IMG/VR virus record: IMGVR_UViG_3300022894_000002
Coordinates: 36,490-100,489 of that record
From: a virus
Taxonomy: Duplodnaviria; Heunggongvirae; Uroviricota; Caudoviricetes; Crassvirales
Direction: 5' to 3' (one strand)
Length of the DNA: 64,000 bases
Shown: piece by piece, positions 4,181 to 39,035 of the stretch
How the letters are laid out: every line of letters begins with the position of its first letter
How positions within the stretch are numbered: the stretch's first letter is position 1
Made by a program: the position numbers and the translations under genes
The notes under the pieces: generated by a model
What the model was told of the DNA's origin: nothing
The model's input: the letters and a program-made list of their open reading frames with translations, nothing else
Databases searched by the model: none

Positions 4181-5818
4181 TTATGCCCAAGCTGCAAAAG
4201 CTGGTTCAGAAGATAAAGTATCTAGTAACTTCCATAATCCATCAGTTGAATCTGAGAATTGTGTATTAGTACCTTCTACTCCTGCAATTATCAACTCTTG
4301 AGGGAATTGAGAATTGTTTACAATAGCATGTTTAGCAGTACTTCTAAAACTAATTGAAAATGTATTAAAGTTTAATCCATAAGCAATAGCATTTGAAATA
4401 TACTGAGTTGGAGGATTATAAGAAGTATATCTATTTCCTTGATTCATTTGAGAGAACCTTTCAAGTTCTTGAATCTGATAAGAAGTACCTTTGCCATCTA
4501 CAGCAGCAATTGAGTTAGTTACTGGACAAGTTACTGTTGAAAAATTCTCTCCAGGATTAAGAATAAACCTAACTTTTTCAAAACCTCTCATTACTTGAGG
4601 AATATATTGTTTAGGTTTACCAGTTACTTTAATACCCCACAATGAAGCTGGAGATCCAGTTAATGTTGCTACACCTGAATTTAAAGCAGCTGTAGTACCA
4701 TCAAAGAAATATTGAGTTTCACCTTGCCAAGCAATATCTAACAAGAAAGTTGCAGCAGCAGAAGTTGTTTCAGAAACTACATATTTAACAGGTACAGCAT
4801 CACCTACAGTTGTAGTTACTGTTACCTGAGTCCAGGTTGAATCATCATCAGTTGTTAGAACTAATGGCATACCAAACATTGCATAATCTTTAAATGTTAA
4901 TGTGATAACATCACCTGTTGAATCATAAGAAGCTACTGCTTGTGTACCTGCATTAATAGCAGCAGCAATTAAAGCTCCATTTTGATCAGCAGTTCCACCA
5001 TCAGCTACAAGATATAAAGTTGTTCCAATGTAAATAGCTACATGTCCAGCTCCAGTTCCTAACAATGTTACTGGGAATGTGAAAGTAGTTCCATCAGTTG
5101 ATGGAAAGTTAATTACATTACCAGCAGTTACAGTAGCTGTACTAGCAGTAAATGTTCCTGTTCCATCAGCAGTTACAGTATAAACTTCAACTACTCTAGA
5201 GCCTTTAGTAACTTTAGTTACTGTTGAAGAACCTGTTAAAGCAGCCACTGAAGTAGTAGTTGCAACTCTTTCAGCTTTATAAAATGGTTCACCCATTTTA
5301 GCAATATTATCTATCATATTTTTACATAATCCAGCAGCAATTGTAGTAGCTGTATCTGCATCTGTAGCATAATATGTAAATTCTTTTTTAATAGCCCTAT
5401 TACCAGATACATTGAAATCCAATACATCTATTGAACCATAAAAAGATTTAGTTAATCCTGTAGCTAAAGCAGCAGGTAATTGTAAACTTCCAGATCCAAC
5501 ATTACCTAAATAAGAAACTTGTTCTTTAGGAGCTACATGGTTTTTAAATGTTACAGTAGCTGTGCTAAAATCTATTACATCTGATTTAATCAGTGGTAAA
5601 GATGGTCCTTGACCTTGTACAATTACATATTTACCTGTTCCTACAGCTGGAGCTGGAGAAGTTGAGGCTGTTACTCTTAATCCTGAAGGATCTGTTAATA
5701 CAACAGCACCAACTGGTAAATTACTTGGAGAAACTTGTACTCCTACAGCAGGTAAAGCTGTTAAAGCTACATTATCACCCAGTAATAGAATTTTGATTTG
5801 ATTTTGACTTGCGATCAT
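4181..5818 (-). CDS. Large A/T/G-rich structural protein (tail/fibre or tubular protein)
   Basis: 545-aa ORF with low-complexity beta-rich sequence, located in the structural arm. Confidence 0.45.
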   Translation of the reverse strand: MIASQNQIKILLLGDNVALTALPAVGVQVSPSNLPVGAVVLTDPSGLRVTASTSPAPAVGTGKYVIVQGQGPSLPLIKSDVIDFSTATVTFKNHVAPKEQVSYLGNVGSGSLQLPAALATGLTKSFYGSIDVLDFNVSGNRAIKKEFTYYATDADTATTIAAGLCKNMIDNIAKMGEPFYKAERVATTTSVAALTGSSTVTKVTKGSRVVEVYTVTADGTGTFTASTATVTAGNVINFPSTDGTTFTFPVTLLGTGAGHVAIYIGTTLYLVADGGTADQNGALIAAAINAGTQAVASYDSTGDVITLTFKDYAMFGMPLVLTTDDDSTWTQVTVTTTVGDAVPVKYVVSETTSAAATFLLDIAWQGETQYFFDGTTAALNSGVATLTGSPASLWGIKVTGKPKQYIPQVMRGFEKVRFILNPGENFSTVTCPVTNSIAAVDGKGTSYQIQELERFSQMNQGNRYTSYNPPTQYISNAIAYGLNFNTFSISFRSTAKHAIVNNSQFPQELIIAGVEGTNTQFSDSTDGLWKLLDTLSSEPAFAAWA

Positions 5819-35637: not shown

Positions 35638-36271
35638 TTAAAATATACAAATTAAATTACAAACTATTGTGGTGGAATAAGACACGGTTGAAAAGACTGG
35701 AAAGTATTTTCCATGCAAGATGAAATTTCTTGTCAAACTATTGGTTTAATTTGTATTAAAAACTTAAAAGTTGATTGAAACTTTCAATAAGGTGAAAAGC
35801 CTTTATTTAAAAATATATGGGCCTAACAGATTTTGACAGCTAAAATATATAATAGTAAGCATGTGATGTGAGGTACCCTAACATCTAAATCTATGAGTAT
35901 AAACAATAGTTAACACTATAACAAATGAATTAGGTTCAGCAATGGACTTAACTTCCAAATCTGCAATCTCTGATCTAGTATCTGGAGTAGAAGTAAAAAC
36001 TGCTGTTGAAGCAGAATTAGTAGCAGCCTAATTAATTTCAATAAAGTCCCAAATCTGTTTAACTATTAGGACTATAATAATATTAGAGATAAACTAGTAG
36101 ATTTCTAGTATAACCATCTAGAATTATTCTTGTATTAAGAAGAAAAACAAATACTAAACATGTAGAAAGTTATTAGATAGTTAGTTTGGACGTGGGTTTA
36201 ATTCCCACTAGGTCCACTAATTAATTGATAGTCAATTAGTTATATTAAAATTAACATAAAAATAAATTAAA

Positions 36272-37066
36272 ATGTCAAAATTAAATGTATTATTAGCAAA
36301 AACAGATGCCTTACAAAGTTCATTCAGAGCTATGGTATTAGATTACAGTTCTTATTTTAGTAAAAATCAAGGTGATTTTAAAGGAGAAGTAAAAACTTAT
36401 GAAAGTAAACCTGGAATGATTGATTTACCTGCTGAAAGAGGTACTAAATTAATTGTTACAACAGTAGAAGAAAAACTTCAATGGTTTGAACAAACGGGTA
36501 AAGAATATATTGATGCTTTATTTTCTCAAGAAGCTACAAATGCTTCAGGAATAGCTAAAGCAGAATTATTAGTTGATGGTAAATCTTGGGGAGAATATTC
36601 TTCTTTAGAATTATTAAGATTAAAATCTCTAATTGAAAATGGAGATATTGAAAAAATGTATTCTTCTATTCCAGTTAGAAGTGATTCTGAAATATGGAAT
36701 AAAAATACTAATGAAATTTATAAAGATAGAAATGGTATTTATGAATCAATTCCTCAAACAGGTGTTAAAAAATCAGTAACTAAAGAAAGTTATATATTAC
36801 CAGATCCTAATATTACTAAAGATAGTGGAGCTAAGTATGTACCACAAGTTGCTTCTAAAGATACTATTATTGATCTTGGAGAGTATTCTTTTCAAAAATT
36901 TACAGGAGAATGGAGTCATAGAGAAAGAGCAGGTTTATTAAGAAGAAGACAAGTATTATTAACTTCTATTATTGAAGCTTTGAAAAAAGCTAATGAAGTT
37001 GAATCTGTTAATTCTAATTTAACATCTAATAAAATATTTGATTACTTACACAATGGTAATCATTAA
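36272..37066 (+). CDS. Hypothetical protein
   Basis: 264-aa ORF. Confidence 0.4.
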   Translation: MSKLNVLLAKTDALQSSFRAMVLDYSSYFSKNQGDFKGEVKTYESKPGMIDLPAERGTKLIVTTVEEKLQWFEQTGKEYIDALFSQEATNASGIAKAELLVDGKSWGEYSSLELLRLKSLIENGDIEKMYSSIPVRSDSEIWNKNTNEIYKDRNGIYESIPQTGVKKSVTKESYILPDPNITKDSGAKYVPQVASKDTIIDLGEYSFQKFTGEWSHRERAGLLRRRQVLLTSIIEALKKANEVESVNSNLTSNKIFDYLHNGNH

Positions 37067-37197
37067 AGAAAATCACTAAGCCTTAGCATTACAATTAACA
37101 TTAAGTTTATAATCTACTACCTATATAGTAGCATTAAGTGTTGAGTGATTAGCTTTAGGTTTACTTTAAATCAATTAAAGTCATATAAATATAAACA

Positions 37198-37281
37198 ACA
37201 GAAGATTACTGGTTCAAATCCAGTCTGGGCCTCTAAATTAAAAGTAATAAGGCCCAGCAGTTTGGTTGGCGAAACATCTGT
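37198..37281 (+). tRNA. Circularly permuted tRNA gene (3' half at 37198-37232, 18-nt spacer, 5' half at 37251-37281)
   Basis: 3' half: acaga (anticodon 3' stem), agatt (5-nt variable loop), actgg-ttcaaat-ccagt (T-arm), ctgggcc (acceptor 3' strand), t (discriminator). 5' half: ggcccag (acceptor 5' strand), ca, gttt-ggttggcg-aaac (D-arm), a, tctgt (anticodon 5' stem). Acceptor 7/7, D 4/4, anticodon 5/5 and T 5/5 are all perfect. Total length 73 nt if a 7-nt loop is supplied. Confidence 0.55.
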
Positions 37282-37342
37282 ACATTAAACTTTAGATTAT
37301 ATGAAAACTTTAATTAACATATTAGTGAATATGTAACAATTA

Positions 37343-37372
37343 AGTAGGCTCGCAGGATATAAAGAGCCTACT
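37343..37372 (+). other. Strong hairpin (9-bp stem agtaggctc/gagcctact) immediately 5' of the tRNA at 37376
   Basis: Perfect inverted repeat read from the sequence. Confidence 0.4.
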
Positions 37373-37375
37373 AAC

Positions 37376-37452
37376 TGGGGAACTGATGCAATTGGTAGAC
37401 ATCTTATGAATATAGGACATAAGTAGTGAGGTTCAAGTCCTTAATTCCCCAC
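37376..37452 (+). tRNA. tRNA (anticodon undetermined; imperfect fold with an extra base at the T-stem/acceptor junction and a 9-nt or mismatched anticodon loop)
   Basis: Acceptor tggggaa/ttcccca is 7/7. D-arm gatg-caattggtaga-catc. Anticodon stem ttatg/cataa is 5/5 with the 9-nt loop aauauagga, or alternatively 4 bp plus an A.A mismatch with a 7-nt loop. T-arm tgagg-ttcaagt-cctta. Confidence 0.5.
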
Positions 37453-37658
37453 AAAAACAATAGGTAATAAATACCGGTAATCAAAATAGTAATAAGCAAT
37501 AAAAGCTTGAGAGAAAAGTACACCTATTGTTTAATTTAAAGAAATAAAAACTACTTACTGAAGATAAATTTAGAATGTCTAAAATCTATAAACTGATAAT
37601 AATTCAGATGATTTCACTATTGCTAAGAATAGTTTATTTATTGTAAGGTATTTTTATG

Positions 37659-37728
37659 AAATATTTGTAGCATATAGGCTTATGCACTGACGTAATCAGA
37701 GATATTGGTTCAATTCCAATCTTAAAAA
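37659..37728 (+). tRNA. Pseudo-tRNA / tRNA-like element
   Basis: Good D-arm gcat-ataggctt-atgc and T-arm attgg-ttcaatt-ccaat, with acceptor 3' strand cttaaaa. The 5' acceptor pairs poorly and the anticodon region folds only as a 4-bp stem with a 5-nt loop. Confidence 0.3.
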
Positions 37729-37777
37729 TAGTAATAATATTCCACTTAGAAATGGATGAGTAGTTTTTTAAAACAAA

Positions 37778-37807
37778 AAATCCTCTTAGTTAATTCTAAG
37801 AGGATTA
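37778..37807 (-). terminator. Bidirectional intrinsic terminator (12-bp stem aaatcctcttag/ctaagaggattt, loop ttaatt); T-tract on the minus strand
   Basis: Read from the sequence. It terminates the minus-strand pair 38899..37824. Confidence 0.6.
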
Positions 37808-37823
37808 ATTTTACTAATAATAA

Positions 37824-38147
37824 TTAGTATCTGCGATAACCATATACTCTACCTCTTGGATTAGCTCCATAAGGATAGTAAGGATTATAGAATTGCATTT
37901 GGTTTTGTCTTTGAGATTGTTGTTCAGATTGTTGAGGTTTACCTTGAGTTAAATCAACTTTTTCAGTTTCAGACTTTCTCTGGATATAATCACCCAACAT
38001 AGACCAAGCTTTTTGTAATTCATAAAGATACTCTGTATTATCTCCATCAATATAAGAATATTTAGCGCGTTCAATTGTATCATGAATTTTACATAAGGCT
38101 TCTTCTTCAGAAAATTTATCTACATGTTTCTTGTACCACTCTTTCAT
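37824..38147 (-). CDS. Hypothetical protein with a Q/Y/R-rich C-terminus
   Basis: 107 aa, second gene of a minus-strand pair embedded in the plus-strand arm. Confidence 0.4.
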   Translation of the reverse strand: MKEWYKKHVDKFSEEEALCKIHDTIERAKYSYIDGDNTEYLYELQKAWSMLGDYIQRKSETEKVDLTQGKPQQSEQQSQRQNQMQFYNPYYPYGANPRGRVYGYRRY

Positions 38148-38149
38148 AA

Positions 38150-38899
38150 TTAATGAACATTAGTTTGTGAATTACTAGGAGTTGCAATTAAACCTGTTCC
38201 AATTTGTACAGTTTTATTATTTTGCTTTTGTTCTTGTAAAGTTGAATTAACTAAACCAGTCAAATTAGATATTTGAGCTGAAATAAGTGAATTATCACCA
38301 CAAGCTACTTTTCTACGTAATTCATCTAATTGATCTTGAAGAGTTTTTTCTCTAAGTTCACAGAATCCACGTTCAATTTGTAAACCTAAATCACATTTAA
38401 CTTCTTTAATATCAGCTTCTACTTTACAAAAGTGATGTTCCATATTGGTGGATAAAGCATTAAGTCTATCAGTAGCTCTAGCTTCAATTTGAAGTGAGTT
38501 AATAATAGCATCCTTACCTACTATAATAGCATCCTTTTGTACTTCACAGATCTTATTATCTAAAGCTCTGAAGTTTACTTGATTATTAGTATCTTGTACT
38601 TGAATAGCAGCTTGAATTCTTGATTCAACTTTAGCAGCTTCCAAAGCAGCATCACCAACATCTTTACGTAAATCAGCTAAGATAATATTGTTATTATCAG
38701 CAGTAGTACCATTACCAAAGCCAAATCCTCCTCTACCACCAAGTAGAGAAGCTAATACTAAAGCACTTAAACCTCCACCACCAAATCCATCAGTGTATGG
38801 TAATCTGTTTGAACCAGCAGCAATAGCAGCTGCAACTAAGGCTGAATTATCAGATCCTGTGTTAATAAAACCTCCCATAGGGGGCATGTATCCTTCCAT
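38150..38899 (-). CDS. Gly-rich / hydrophobic N-terminus plus coiled-coil protein (membrane-active or virion-internal?)
   Basis: GGFINTG...ALVAAAIAAG...GFGGGGLSALVLASLLGGRGGFGFGNG, then heptad-like helices. Confidence 0.4.
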   Translation of the reverse strand: MEGYMPPMGGFINTGSDNSALVAAAIAAGSNRLPYTDGFGGGGLSALVLASLLGGRGGFGFGNGTTADNNNIILADLRKDVGDAALEAAKVESRIQAAIQVQDTNNQVNFRALDNKICEVQKDAIIVGKDAIINSLQIEARATDRLNALSTNMEHHFCKVEADIKEVKCDLGLQIERGFCELREKTLQDQLDELRRKVACGDNSLISAQISNLTGLVNSTLQEQKQNNKTVQIGTGLIATPSNSQTNVH

Positions 38900-39035
38900 T
38901 TAATTTTGTTTTTAATTTGTTAATAATATTTATTTGTTGTCTAGACATATAATATACATCAAATTGAATACCAAATTAGATGGAATTGATAAAATGGCAG
39001 ATTAAAATGACAATTTTACATATAAATAAAAAATA

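What the first reader, a model, noticed from the sequence alone, without database searches (positions are those of the whole stretch)
37198..37281. Apparent circularly permuted tRNA gene: the 3' half precedes the 5' half, with all four stems perfectly complementary
The upstream block reads acaga-agatt-actgg-ttcaaat-ccagt-ctgggcc-t. That is an anticodon 3' stem, a 5-nt variable loop, a TTCAAAT T-arm, an acceptor 3' strand and a discriminator.

Eighteen nt downstream comes ggcccag-ca-gttt-ggttggcg-aaac-a-tctgt. That is an acceptor 5' strand, positions 8-9, a D-arm with GG, position 26 and an anticodon 5' stem.

Every helix between the two blocks is perfect: acceptor 7/7, D 4/4, anticodon 5/5 and T 5/5. 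Supplying a 7-nt anticodon loop gives a canonical 73-nt cloverleaf.

No 5' half lies upstream and no 3' half lies downstream, so this is not simply two adjacent ordinary tRNAs.

Permuted tRNA genes are established in the red alga Cyanidioschyzon merolae and a few archaea, where they mature through a circular intermediate. I am not aware of one in a bacteriophage, where no BHB splicing endonuclease is available. The alternative is a tandem tRNA duplication that lost its outer halves precisely at the anticodon loop, for example through integrase crossover sites. That would be informative too.
Basis: partly seen in the sequence, partly recalled or inferred. Interest (0 to 1): 0.85.

Follow-up and report, generated by a model that had tools for sequence, protein, structure and literature searches.

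The report
Split-order tRNA mimic RNA in phage
The "back-to-front tRNA gene" is real and strongly conserved, but it has no anticodon loop, so it is a tRNA-shaped non-coding RNA of the bacterial Y-RNA (YrlA) type, and it always travels with one uncharacterised protein gene (DUF7873) in many phages and some bacteria.

Summary
Window 37198-37281 (+) reads anticodon-stem 3' strand, V loop, T arm, acceptor 3' strand, U73, an 18-nt spacer, acceptor 5' strand, D arm, anticodon-stem 5' strand, and every helix is perfect. None of 300 simulated windows gave such a site.

A covariance model built only from 20 other loci finds this site at 82.7 bits (E = 4.5e-20). On that alignment 95% of cells pair and 19 of 21 pairs show compensatory changes.

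It is neither a decaying duplication nor a decoding tRNA. No anticodon triplet is conserved. Instead, the two flanks pair into a conserved bulged helix, so the whole RNA spans 37173-37315.

This is the topology of YrlA, the tRNA-mimicking bacterial Y RNA. Rfam's YrlA model hits the homologous elements at 29-46 bits, below its threshold of 69.

The base after the discriminator follows the same rule as genuine tRNA genes in the same genomes. This suggests RNase P cleavage plus CCA addition, giving a two-piece RNA as shown for Mycobacterium smegmatis YrlA.

Unlike YrlA, there is no Ro60 gene and no Ro-binding motif. The RNA instead lies just downstream of a DUF7873 gene in crAss-like, Lak-like, Rhizobium and Vibrio phages and in Bacteroidota chromosomes.

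Verdict: a new variant of a known kind. Its function is unknown; the best guess is a DUF7873-RNA particle.

The parts
36272..37066 (+). DUF7873 gene (264 aa), the constant upstream neighbour and candidate protein partner of the RNA
   Evidence: Pfam PF25283, E = 8.6e-38. The tRNA-like element lies 100-470 nt downstream on the same strand in 55 of 62 untruncated viral or metagenomic loci, in Rhizobium and Vibrio phages, and in about 35 of 40 Bacteroidota genome loci.
37077..37166 (+). Conserved long hairpin RNA between the gene and the tRNA mimic (a possible companion RNA)
   Evidence: Minimum-free-energy fold of 37060-37380, z = -3.9. The block TTAGTGTTGnGTCAAAGCTTTAG and the hairpin recur in most loci, including the bacterial locus L080.
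37173..37188 (+). 5' strand of the closing helix (H2 37173-37180, H1 37181-37188)
   Evidence: All 16 bases pair with 37297-37304 and 37308-37315. Cognate flanks pair far better than non-cognate flanks across 39 unique loci (mean -15.4 vs -10.1 kcal/mol, p = 2e-14). L060, L061 and L063 show compensatory changes.
37189..37197 (+). 5' side of the internal loop (A-rich, ends ..ca)
   Evidence: Across loci, positions -2 and -1 are mostly A.
37198..37232 (+). tRNA 3'-half equivalent: anticodon-stem 3' strand, V loop (5 nt), T arm with TTCAAAT loop, acceptor 3' strand, discriminator U37232
   Evidence: T stem and acceptor stem covary. The T loop TTCRAnT is conserved.
37233..37250 (+). 18-nt A-rich spacer closing the acceptor stem, probably excised. 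Its first base, C37233, is the C74 equivalent
   Evidence: Spacer length ranges from 16 to 202 nt and its sequence is not conserved, but its first base is C in 39 of 39 unique elements. This is the same rule as ordinary tRNA genes of the same genomes.
37251..37281 (+). tRNA 5'-half equivalent: acceptor 5' strand (predicted RNase P cut between 37250 and 37251), C8 A9, D arm with GG, position 26, anticodon-stem 5' strand
37282..37296 (+). 3' side of the internal loop (15 nt) carrying the semi-conserved motif ~AUAAGCUUAAA
   Evidence: Alignment A3: A37288, T37292 and A37294 are conserved in at least 90% of 21 sequences. The gap between the stem and the closing helix is 14-15 nt in most loci.
37297..37315 (+). 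3' strand of the closing helix: H1 37297-37304, 3-nt bulge AAA 37305-37307, H2 37308-37315
   Evidence: The 8 bp / 3-nt bulge / 8 bp layout reaches at least 14 of 16 pairs in 22 of 39 cognate flank pairs, against 23 of 390 non-cognate pairs.

Best explanation
Window 37173-37315 (+) encodes a non-coding RNA of about 143 nt that mimics tRNA. It is not a tRNA.

Structure (shown):
- Its 5' and 3' ends pair into a bulged helix of about 16 bp.
- From that helix projects a complete L-shape-competent tRNA body in the order anticodon-stem equivalent, V loop, T arm, 7-bp acceptor stem closed by a loop, D arm.
- This is the architecture of YrlA, the tRNA-like bacterial Y RNA.
- There is no anticodon loop, so the RNA cannot decode.

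Inferred steps:
1. The RNA is co-transcribed with the upstream DUF7873 gene and the tmRNA/tRNA cluster.
2. RNase P cuts 5' of G37251.
3. The 3' side is trimmed to U73-C74 and completed to CCA by the host CCA-adding enzyme, and the spacer is discarded.
4. This leaves a two-piece RNA held together by the four tRNA stems and the closing helix, as demonstrated experimentally for M. smegmatis YrlA.
5. The RNA works as a particle with the DUF7873 protein, which takes the place Ro60 has for Y RNAs.
6. Its likely field of action is tRNA/RNA surveillance, repair or decoying during infection.

Steps 5 and 6 are the least certain.
For: Structure and conservation:
- Perfect cloverleaf in permuted order.
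- Model R1, built without the window, scores 82.7 bits, E = 4.5e-20.
- On alignment A4, 95% of cells pair against 37-49% in the slid controls. 19 of 21 pairs show double changes, and 133 cells show double changes against 39 in shuffles.
- RNAalifold on plain MAFFT alignment A3 recovers the T arm and the acceptor stem independently.
- G-U pairs occur on the + strand only, so this is an RNA structure.

Closing helix:
- Cognate versus non-cognate flanks, p = 2e-14.
- The 8-3-8 layout fits 22 of 39 cognate pairs against 6% of controls.
- Compensatory changes are visible among the close relatives.

No anticodon: the candidate triplets vary even between close relatives.

Resemblance to YrlA:
- Rfam RF02553 hits the orthologous elements in L032 (45.9 bits, full-length model), L056 (41.8), L006 (39.4), L066 (35.9), L016 (31.8) and L065 (29.3).
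- The bona fide YrlA next to the Ro gene of mycobacteriophage Bxz1 scores 32.5 bits.
- Chen et al. 2014 (PMC4201824) describe this same order of modules. They also show that the one YrlA with a 7-bp acceptor stem is cut by RNase P and receives CCA in vivo.

tRNA-like end rule:
- The base after the discriminator is C in 39 of 39 elements.
- Ordinary tRNA genes in the crAss-like loci also show C in that position but not CCA (21 of 21 start with C, 1 encodes CCA).
- Ordinary tRNA genes of the proteobacterial phages encode CCA (14 of 17), and so do all 3 elements in those phages.

Coupling to DUF7873. This includes a stand-alone cassette (gene, hairpin, tRNA mimic, terminator) among housekeeping genes in Xanthocytophaga flavus, with no tRNA gene within 4 kb.

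RNA-repair neighbours:
- RNA ligase in the window at 43088-44260.
- RNA ligase adjacent to DUF7873 in L063 and L069, and a Pnkp-like kinase and phosphatase in L063.
Against: - The window's own element gets no Rfam YrlA hit even at E <= 10. The homologues score below the family's gathering threshold of 69 bits.
- Model R1 scores about 25-40 bits on junctions between two adjacent ordinary tRNAs. The cross-match with YrlA may therefore reflect only shared tRNA-likeness in permuted order, not common descent.
- No Ro60/TROVE gene and no GNCGAAN0-1G motif are present.
- DUF7873 has no detectable RNA-binding fold and no structural relative, and its pI is 6.0.
- Seven Lak-like loci carry DUF7873 without the element.
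- Processing, CCA addition and protein binding are all inferred from sequence only.
- The loop edges look like anticodon-loop edges: T at +2 in 28 of 35 loci and AA at -2/-1. This keeps a pre-tRNA-like reading alive.
Confidence: 0.68

Rival explanations
1. A cis-acting tRNA-like 3'-UTR or processing element. The structure exists only to be cut by RNase P. That would define and stabilise the 3' end of the DUF7873 mRNA (which would end in a T arm plus an acceptor strand with CCA) and separate it from downstream RNAs, in the manner of MALAT1/mascRNA or tRNA punctuation. It would have no trans function of its own.
For: - The element is always on the same strand and directly downstream of DUF7873.
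- In the bacterial cassette, a terminator follows the RNA rather than the gene.
- The 7-bp acceptor stem and the C74/CCA rule fit RNase P and 3'-end processing.
Against: - A full D arm, the GG/T-loop tertiary partners, a Levitt-pair-like 15:48 covariation in many loci (my reading of the element sequences listed, not a tallied count) and a conserved closing helix with a bulge are more than RNase P needs.
- A separate conserved hairpin lies between the stop codon and the element.
- The closing helix would demarcate a discrete RNA.
- YrlA, with the same design, is a trans-acting protein-bound RNA (PMC4201824).
Confidence: 0.15
2. A true circularly permuted tRNA gene. Leader and trailer pair, and a nuclease trims them. 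A phage RNA ligase joins the ends into an anticodon loop, and RNase P and CCA-adding enzyme open the acceptor end, giving a decoding tRNA.
For: - All four stems, the T loop, the GG in the D loop and the tRNA-style 3' end are canonical.
- A leader-trailer helix is also what permuted pre-tRNAs of Cyanidioschyzon have (own knowledge).
- The second base after the anticodon-stem 5' strand is T in 28 of 35 loci and the last two bases before the 3' strand are mostly AA, resembling U33 and A37-A38.
- RNA ligase genes are nearby.
Against: - No conserved anticodon at any register. The most common candidates (AAA, ACA, AAT, ATA) start with A34 and change between close relatives that keep the same acceptor and discriminator.
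- The window itself has C, not U, at '33'.
- The internal loop is 5-11 nt by 14-15 nt and carries a conserved non-anticodon motif.
- There is no bulge-helix-bulge (4-bp helix between two 3-nt bulges). Bacteria are not known to encode a splicing endonuclease (own knowledge), and none turned up among the proteins scanned here.
- The cassette also occurs alone in bacterial chromosomes that have full tRNA sets.
- The window clade has C8/G14/G21 in place of the invariant U8/A14/A21.
Confidence: 0.07
3. The tRNA-like domain of a two-piece (permuted) tmRNA.
For: - The order (T arm, acceptor 3' strand, (C)CA, intervening loop, acceptor 5' strand) is that of permuted ssrA genes.
- Rfam's beta_tmRNA model gives weak partial hits on L067, L065 and L032 (11-25 bits).
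- A tmRNA-related context exists.
Against: - No G3.U70 pair. Position 3:70 is C-G in 27, G-C in 5, A-U in 5, U-G in 1 and C-A in 1 of 39 elements.
- A real 3-4-bp D stem is present.
- No tag reading frame or pseudoknots were called by ARAGORN or Rfam.
- The window already has a complete one-piece tmRNA with G3.U70 at 35819-36219.
Confidence: 0.02
4. A decaying remnant of a tandem tRNA duplication or of integrase crossover sites.
For: Model R1 does score junctions of adjacent tRNAs at 25-40 bits, so such junctions can look similar.
Against: - The element is conserved at the same syntenic place in more than 85 loci from phages of four very different groups and from bacteria.
- Compensatory substitutions occur in every stem.
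- No partner tRNA halves are nearby.
Confidence: 0.01

Closest known systems
YrlA, the tRNA-like bacterial/mycobacteriophage Y RNA (Rfam RF02553; Chen et al. 2014, PMC4201824; Wang et al. 2018, bioRxiv 10.1101/312249)
   Same: - Identical module order: 5' stem strand, V region, T arm, closed acceptor-like stem, D arm, 3' stem strand.
- Canonical T-loop and D-loop tertiary partners.
- No anticodon loop.
- The M. smegmatis member has a 7-bp acceptor stem, is cut by RNase P and gains CCA, giving two pieces.
- YrlA is encoded beside a second, hairpin-shaped RNA and near RNA-repair genes.
- The Rfam model hits homologues of the window's element at 29-46 bits.
   Different: - No Ro60/Rsr gene in the window, the loci or the DUF7873-bearing phages.
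- No GNCGAAN0-1G Ro-binding motif (0 of 39).
- The closing helix has its own conserved 3-nt bulge on the 3' strand and a different loop motif.
- Scores lie below the Rfam gathering threshold, and the window's copy is not hit at all.
- The constant neighbour is DUF7873, not Ro60.
- Every member examined has a 7-bp acceptor stem and a tRNA-style C74/CCA.
Circularly permuted tRNA genes (Cyanidioschyzon merolae, some green algae, Thermofilum; own knowledge, and PMC3400036/PMC4238349 mention them)
   Same: The 3' half precedes the 5' half, joined by a short intervening sequence at the acceptor ends. Leader and trailer can pair. RNase P and 3' processing open the acceptor end.
   Different: Those genes yield decoding tRNAs with a defined anticodon, through a bulge-helix-bulge motif, a splicing endonuclease and a circular intermediate. 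Here there is no conserved anticodon, no bulge-helix-bulge motif and no such endonuclease.
Two-piece (permuted) tmRNA of alpha-/beta-proteobacteria and cyanobacteria
   Same: A permuted tRNA-like domain whose acceptor ends are linked by an excised intervening segment. The mature RNA is two base-paired pieces.
   Different: tmRNA has the G3.U70 alanine identity pair, lacks a D stem, and carries pseudoknots and a tag reading frame. None of these applies here.
RNase P-processed tRNA-like elements in longer transcripts (mascRNA/MALAT1; own knowledge and PMC8457004)
   Same: A tRNA-shaped structure used as an RNase P and CCA-adding substrate downstream of another functional transcript.
   Different: Those have the normal (non-permuted) order and are eukaryotic.

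Membership tests
YrlA (Y RNA-like A, RF02553) | tRNA-like domain in the order end-stem / V / T arm / closed acceptor-like stem / D arm / end-stem | tested here: met
   Folds, covariation, and alignment to the RF02553 consensus in homologue L032.
YrlA (Y RNA-like A, RF02553) | Match to the Rfam covariance model at or above its gathering score (69 bits) | tested here: not met
   Window: no hit at E <= 10. Homologues: 29.3-45.9 bits. The genuine Bxz1 YrlA also scores only 32.5 bits, so this criterion is stringent.
YrlA (Y RNA-like A, RF02553) | Encoded within about 4 kb of, and on the same strand as, a Ro60/Rsr (TROVE) gene | tested here: not met
   - No TROVE domain among the neighbouring ORFs.
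- tblastn with Bxz1 Ro against the window and all loci gave nothing below E = 3.
- Ro homologues in the phage collection are in actinophages, 2 Agrobacterium phages, 1 Sinorhizobium phage and 1 unidentified Vibrio phage. None is in the Prevotella (Lak) or Rhizobium RHph phages that carry DUF7873.
YrlA (Y RNA-like A, RF02553) | GNCGAAN0-1G motif near the 5' end (proposed Ro60 contact) | tested here: not met
   Found in 0 of 39 unique elements within 70 nt upstream.
YrlA (Y RNA-like A, RF02553) | [quoted passage not shown] | not testable with these tools
   Indirect evidence only: the 7-bp acceptor stem and the C74/CCA rule shared with genuine tRNA genes.
Circularly permuted tRNA gene | 3' half upstream of 5' half with acceptor, D, anticodon and T stems formed between the two blocks | tested here: met
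Circularly permuted tRNA gene | Flanks supply a 7-nt anticodon loop (U33, purine 37) with an anticodon conserved among orthologues | tested here: not met
   At best 22 of 35 loci satisfy U33 and R37 in any register. The top 'anticodons' (AAA, ACA, AAT, ATA) are inconsistent. The window has C at position 33.
Circularly permuted tRNA gene | Bulge-helix-bulge motif at the leader/trailer junction, and a splicing endonuclease to cut it | tested here: not met
   The junction is an asymmetric loop (5-11 nt by 14-15 nt) followed by an 8-bp helix, one 3-nt bulge and another 8-bp helix. No endonuclease of that family was seen among the scanned neighbours. The whole phage genome was not available.
Circularly permuted tRNA gene | Circular RNA intermediate and a mature contiguous tRNA | not testable with these tools
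   Needs RNA-seq or northern data.
Two-piece tmRNA | G3.U70 alanine identity pair in the acceptor stem | tested here: not met
   Pair 3:70 is C-G, G-C, A-U, U-G or C-A, never G-U.
Two-piece tmRNA | Tag reading frame with pseudoknots; no D stem | tested here: not met
   ARAGORN and Rfam call no permuted tmRNA here. A 3-4-bp D stem covaries.

The most novel reading that the evidence does not exclude
DUF7873 and this tRNA-shaped, probably two-piece, CCA-ended RNA (together with the conserved hairpin upstream of it) form a previously unrecognised ribonucleoprotein module. It would be a Ro60-independent counterpart of the Ro60-Y RNA system. It is spread through crAss-like phages, Lak megaphages, Rhizobium and Vibrio phages and free-living Bacteroidota. 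Phages would use it in the contest over tRNA integrity, for example as a decoy for tRNA-targeting nucleases or as a scaffold for the RNA ligase and kinase-phosphatase genes that often sit next to it. A bolder sub-case is that its CCA end is aminoacylated or otherwise modified by a dedicated enzyme.
Probability: 0.35. Interest if true: 0.75.

Novelty: new variant of a known kind. Interest (0 to 1): 0.6.

Why it matters
tRNA mimics of the Y-RNA type were known only as partners of Ro60. Here the same RNA design is tied instead to a protein family of unknown function and fold, across some of the most abundant gut phages (crAss-like, Lak) and in bacterial chromosomes.

That gives DUF7873 its first functional lead, as an RNA partner. 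It also gives annotators a rule: a 'permuted tRNA' downstream of DUF7873 is a structured non-coding RNA, not a tRNA.

The module could be tested in cultivable systems: Rhizobium phages RHph_TM16 and TM30, Vibrio phage D472, and Xanthocytophaga flavus NT2B1.

Finally, it cautions against reading such loci as evidence for archaeal or eukaryote-style permuted tRNA maturation in phages.

Tried and rejected
1. Permuted group I intron (a 'PIE'-type arrangement that would circularise the exons). Rejected by my own reading of the sequence: the flanks are only about 130 and 95 nt, there is no G within 17 nt upstream of the 3'-half block to act as the intron's terminal G, and no Rfam intron hit appears in 36900-37800. 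A concatenated-flank search against Rfam could not be run.

2. The 8-mer AGCTTTAG that recurs around the element, as a promoter or processing signal. It is over-represented in the window (193 matches against 87 expected, one mismatch allowed), but it is scattered through coding regions on both strands. It later proved to be part of the conserved upstream hairpin and to resemble the 3'-loop motif. Its role remains unexplained.

3. A K-turn reading of the 3-nt bulge. There is no G-A/A-G tandem after the bulge (my reading of the sequences).

5. Searches for near-identical DNA. Megablast of 36000-39000 against the phage collection and an exact 24-mer search in viral contigs both found nothing. Homologues had to be reached through the neighbouring protein.

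6. Sigma-70 promoter scan. Hits were no more frequent than in shuffled sequence.

7. Literature. No paper in the held library mentions DUF7873, permuted tRNA genes in phages, or YrlA outside Ro60 contexts.
Full report
**1. The observation**

- acaga / agatt / actgg-ttcaaat-ccagt / ctgggcc / t
- an 18-nt A-rich spacer (37233-37250)
- ggcccag / ca / gttt-ggttggcg-aaac / a / tctgt

RNAfold gives the permuted cloverleaf as the minimum-free-energy structure. ARAGORN and Rfam call no ordinary tRNA overlapping it. The nearest tRNA-type genes are:
- a tmRNA at 35819-36219
- an odd tRNA at 37377-37452
- a weak tRNA-like hit at 37661-37728

A strict scanner finds one site in the window and none in 300 simulated windows.

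**2. What the window is**

The window has 25% G+C. It carries a crAss-type large terminase, a portal protein and a family A DNA polymerase. The terminase is at most 40% identical to those of crAss-like phages. It is a distant crAss-like phage.

The element lies in a + strand block made of, in order:
- the tmRNA
- the DUF7873 gene (36272-37066)
- a hairpin
- the element
- the tRNA-like genes
- a bidirectional terminator at 37779-37806

**3. Conservation**

DNA searches found no close relative, so I used the neighbouring DUF7873 protein as a handle. It has 630 homologues.

In 58 IMG/VR loci, 12 metagenome-assembly or NCBI loci and 40 GTDB genome loci, the same permuted cloverleaf sits 100-470 nt downstream of the DUF7873 gene on the same strand:
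- 55 of 62 untruncated loci of the first set, by a custom scanner plus the covariance model
- about 35 of 40 genome loci

It is also present after the DUF7873 homologues (23-28% identity) of Rhizobium phages RHph_TM16 and TM30 and of Vibrio phage D472. In Lak-like megaphage contigs it carries a 113-130-nt spacer.

The sequences of all four stems differ between loci while pairing is kept:
- On alignment A4 (20 loci, window excluded), 95% of cells pair, against 37-49% when partners are slid.
- 19 of 21 pairs have changes on both sides.
- 133 cells show double changes, against 39 in shuffles.
- RNAalifold on a plain MAFFT alignment recovers the T arm and the acceptor stem by itself.
- Model R1, built from A4, hits the window at 82.7 bits, E = 4.5e-20.
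- G-U pairs are tolerated only on the + strand, so the structure is RNA.

This refutes the 'decaying duplication remnant' alternative.

**4. Why it is not a decoding tRNA**

The two strands of the 'anticodon stem' are not closed by anything that could become an anticodon loop. Across 35 distinct flank pairs, no triplet is conserved in any register. The close relatives of the window (74-81% protein identity) share its stem design and U73, yet at the anticodon position:
- the window has ATT, preceded by C rather than U33
- L060 has AGA
- L061 has AAT
- L063 has ATA

Most candidates start with A34.

Instead, the 5' and 3' flanks pair with each other. In the window, 37173-37188 pairs with 37297-37304 and 37308-37315 (16 of 16 pairs), with a 3-nt bulge AAA at 37305-37307. 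Supporting evidence:
- Cognate flanks pair much better than non-cognate ones (-15.4 vs -10.1 kcal/mol, p = 2e-14).
- The 8 bp / 3-nt bulge / 8 bp layout fits 22 of 39 unique loci against 6% of controls, with a 14-15-nt gap on the 3' side.
- L060, L061 and L063 show compensatory changes in both halves of the helix.

Between this helix and the tRNA body lies an asymmetric internal loop. Its 3' side carries a semi-conserved motif (~AUAAGCUUAAA). This is not a bulge-helix-bulge motif.

The loop edges do resemble anticodon-loop edges: T at +2 in 28 of 35 loci, and AA at -2/-1. For that reason I leave a small probability on a pre-tRNA-like reading.

**5. What it resembles**

The layout is that of YrlA, the tRNA-mimicking Y RNA of bacteria and mycobacteriophages: a stem made by the two ends, V region, T arm, acceptor stem closed by a loop, and D arm (Chen et al. 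2014, PMC4201824).

- Rfam's YrlA model (RF02553) finds the genuine YrlA next to the Ro-like gene of mycobacteriophage Bxz1 at 32.5 bits.
- The same model finds the DUF7873-linked elements of L032, L056, L006, L066, L016 and L065 at 45.9-29.3 bits.
- The score comes mainly from the T-arm/acceptor/D-arm core, not from the end stem.
- The window's own copy, with its diverged D arm (C8, G14, G21), is not hit.
- R1 reciprocally hits the Bxz1 YrlA at 33 bits, but it scores junctions of adjacent tRNAs similarly.

The cross-match therefore shows shared design and does not prove common descent.

**6. How it probably matures**

Chen et al. showed that the one YrlA with a 7-bp acceptor stem (M. smegmatis) is cut by RNase P and receives CA to complete CCA in vivo. 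This leaves two Ro-bound pieces.

Every element here has a 7-bp acceptor stem. The base after the discriminator is C in 39 of 39 unique elements. The spacer that follows varies from 16 to 202 nt without sequence conservation, and the long versions are extra hairpins.

Ordinary tRNA genes of the same crAss-like loci follow the same rule: 21 of 21 start with C after the discriminator, and only one encodes CCA. Ordinary tRNA genes of the proteobacterial phages encode CCA (14 of 17), and so do their three elements.

From this I infer RNase P cleavage between 37250 and 37251, trimming to U73-C74, and CCA completion. The result would be a two-piece tRNA mimic with a free CCA end.

**7. What differs from YrlA**

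- There is no Ro60. No TROVE domain was found among the neighbours. tblastn with Bxz1 Ro finds nothing in the window or any locus.
- In the phage collection, Ro homologues occur in actinophages, 2 Agrobacterium phages, 1 Sinorhizobium phage and 1 Vibrio phage that I did not identify. None is in the Prevotella (Lak) or Rhizobium RHph phages that carry DUF7873.
- The proposed Ro-binding motif GNCGAAN0-1G is absent from all 39 elements.
- The constant partner is DUF7873.

In the isolate genome of Xanthocytophaga flavus, the cassette (DUF7873, hairpin, tRNA mimic, terminator) sits alone between an amylase or oxidoreductase gene and an exosortase gene. No tRNA gene lies within 4 kb. The pairing is therefore not a side effect of phage tRNA clusters.

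DUF7873 gives a confident model (pLDDT 86), but it has no structural or sequence relative of known function.

RNA ligase genes lie next to the cassette in L063 and L069 and 6 kb away in the window. L063 also has kinase- and phosphatase-type genes, and L072 has a HisRS-like fragment. This echoes the rsr-yrlBA-rtcBA RNA-repair operon, but it is only association.

**8. Verdict**

The finding is real and biologically meaningful, but the headline interpretation is wrong. It is a Y-RNA-type tRNA mimic in permuted order. It is not a permuted tRNA gene that needs circularisation, and it is not a relic.

It fails three of the defining features of YrlA (Ro60 linkage, the Ro motif, the Rfam threshold) while sharing its architecture and probably its processing. 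I therefore file it as a new variant of a known kind: a DUF7873-coupled tRNA-mimic RNA family.

No paper in the searchable library describes it. Its function is inferred only by analogy and neighbourhood.

Noticed in passing
window 35819-36219 (+): A complete one-piece tmRNA (Rfam 54.8 bits, E = 9e-19), with a G3.U70 pair by my reading of the Rfam alignment. ARAGORN did not report it. It lies just upstream of the DUF7873 gene.
   Followed up: partly
window 24233-24306 (+): A good tRNA (Rfam 62.8 bits) whose anticodon stem TAAGA/TCTTA encloses an 8-nt loop, CTACGTCA. ARAGORN reports a 4-base anticodon 'acgt'. It may be an expanded-loop or quadruplet-type tRNA.
   Followed up: no
window 37377-37452 (+); orthologues in L069 ~2601-2683, L070 ~2680-2760, L071 ~2757-2838: A tRNA-like gene directly after the mimic. 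It has a 6-bp anticodon stem and a 9-nt loop, AATATAGGA. The string TATAGGA in the loop is conserved in relatives. It scores below the Rfam tRNA threshold, and ARAGORN calls it 'Tyr (ata)'.
   Followed up: partly
window 37661-37728 (+): A weak tRNA-like hit (27.4 bits against a threshold of 29) with a largely mismatched acceptor stem.
   Followed up: no
window 37077-37166 (+); L080 ~4810-4892: A conserved long hairpin between the DUF7873 stop codon and the tRNA mimic. The block TTAGTGTTGnGTCAAAGCTTTAG is shared by most loci, including the bacterial chromosome. It is reminiscent of the hairpin-shaped YrlB that accompanies YrlA.
   Followed up: partly
window 37282-37296: The 3' internal-loop motif (~AUAAGCUUAAA; A37288, T37292 and A37294 nearly invariant) resembles the 3' strand of the upstream hairpin. 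The reason for this repetition is unexplained.
   Followed up: partly
window 37258, 37264, 37271; also L060, L063, L004: The window's clade has C8, G14 and G21 where tRNAs have the near-invariant U8, A14 and A21. This may be a coordinated change of the 8-14-21 base triple.
   Followed up: no
L018 2243-2314 (and L017, L019, L021, L022, L028, L050, L057): A second permuted tRNA-like unit, 1.6 kb upstream of DUF7873, between tRNA-Trp and tRNA-Pro. Its acceptor stem is closed by only 4-7 nt, its discriminator is A, and its flanks pair as AAAGTCTCT/AGAGACTTT. R1 scores it at 42-45 bits.
   Followed up: partly
L007 3960-4030 and L013 3947-4005 (spacer inserts): Two unrelated loci share a conserved insert inside the acceptor-loop spacer (GTAGT(T)ACAC..GTAT.TACGAGGA..ACTACGTATA). 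L070, L071, L012 and the Lak-like loci carry other inserts of 110-200 nt that form long hairpins.
   Followed up: no
window 43088-44260 (+); L063 1862-2980 and 4352-5886; L069 2711-3795; L072 3081-3764: RNA ligase (PF09414, DRB0094-like) in the window. RNA ligase lies directly beside the cassette in L063 and L069. L063 has metallophosphatase and AAA_33 kinase genes. L072 has a 227-aa HisRS-like class II synthetase fragment. Together these suggest an RNA-repair or tRNA-related neighbourhood.
   Followed up: partly
L080 3977-5100 (Xanthocytophaga flavus NT2B1, contig of 485 kb): The DUF7873 + hairpin + tRNA-mimic + terminator cassette occurs alone among housekeeping genes of a cultured bacterium. 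Similar loci occur in Dysgonomonas sp. 521 and Bacteroides sp. 224/519.
   Followed up: partly
L041 3786-4500 (also L040, L042, L043, L045, L046, L053): One Lak-like clade keeps DUF7873 (42-45% identity) but has no tRNA mimic downstream. In L041, the one locus I read, a hairpin followed by a run of T sits there instead.
   Followed up: no
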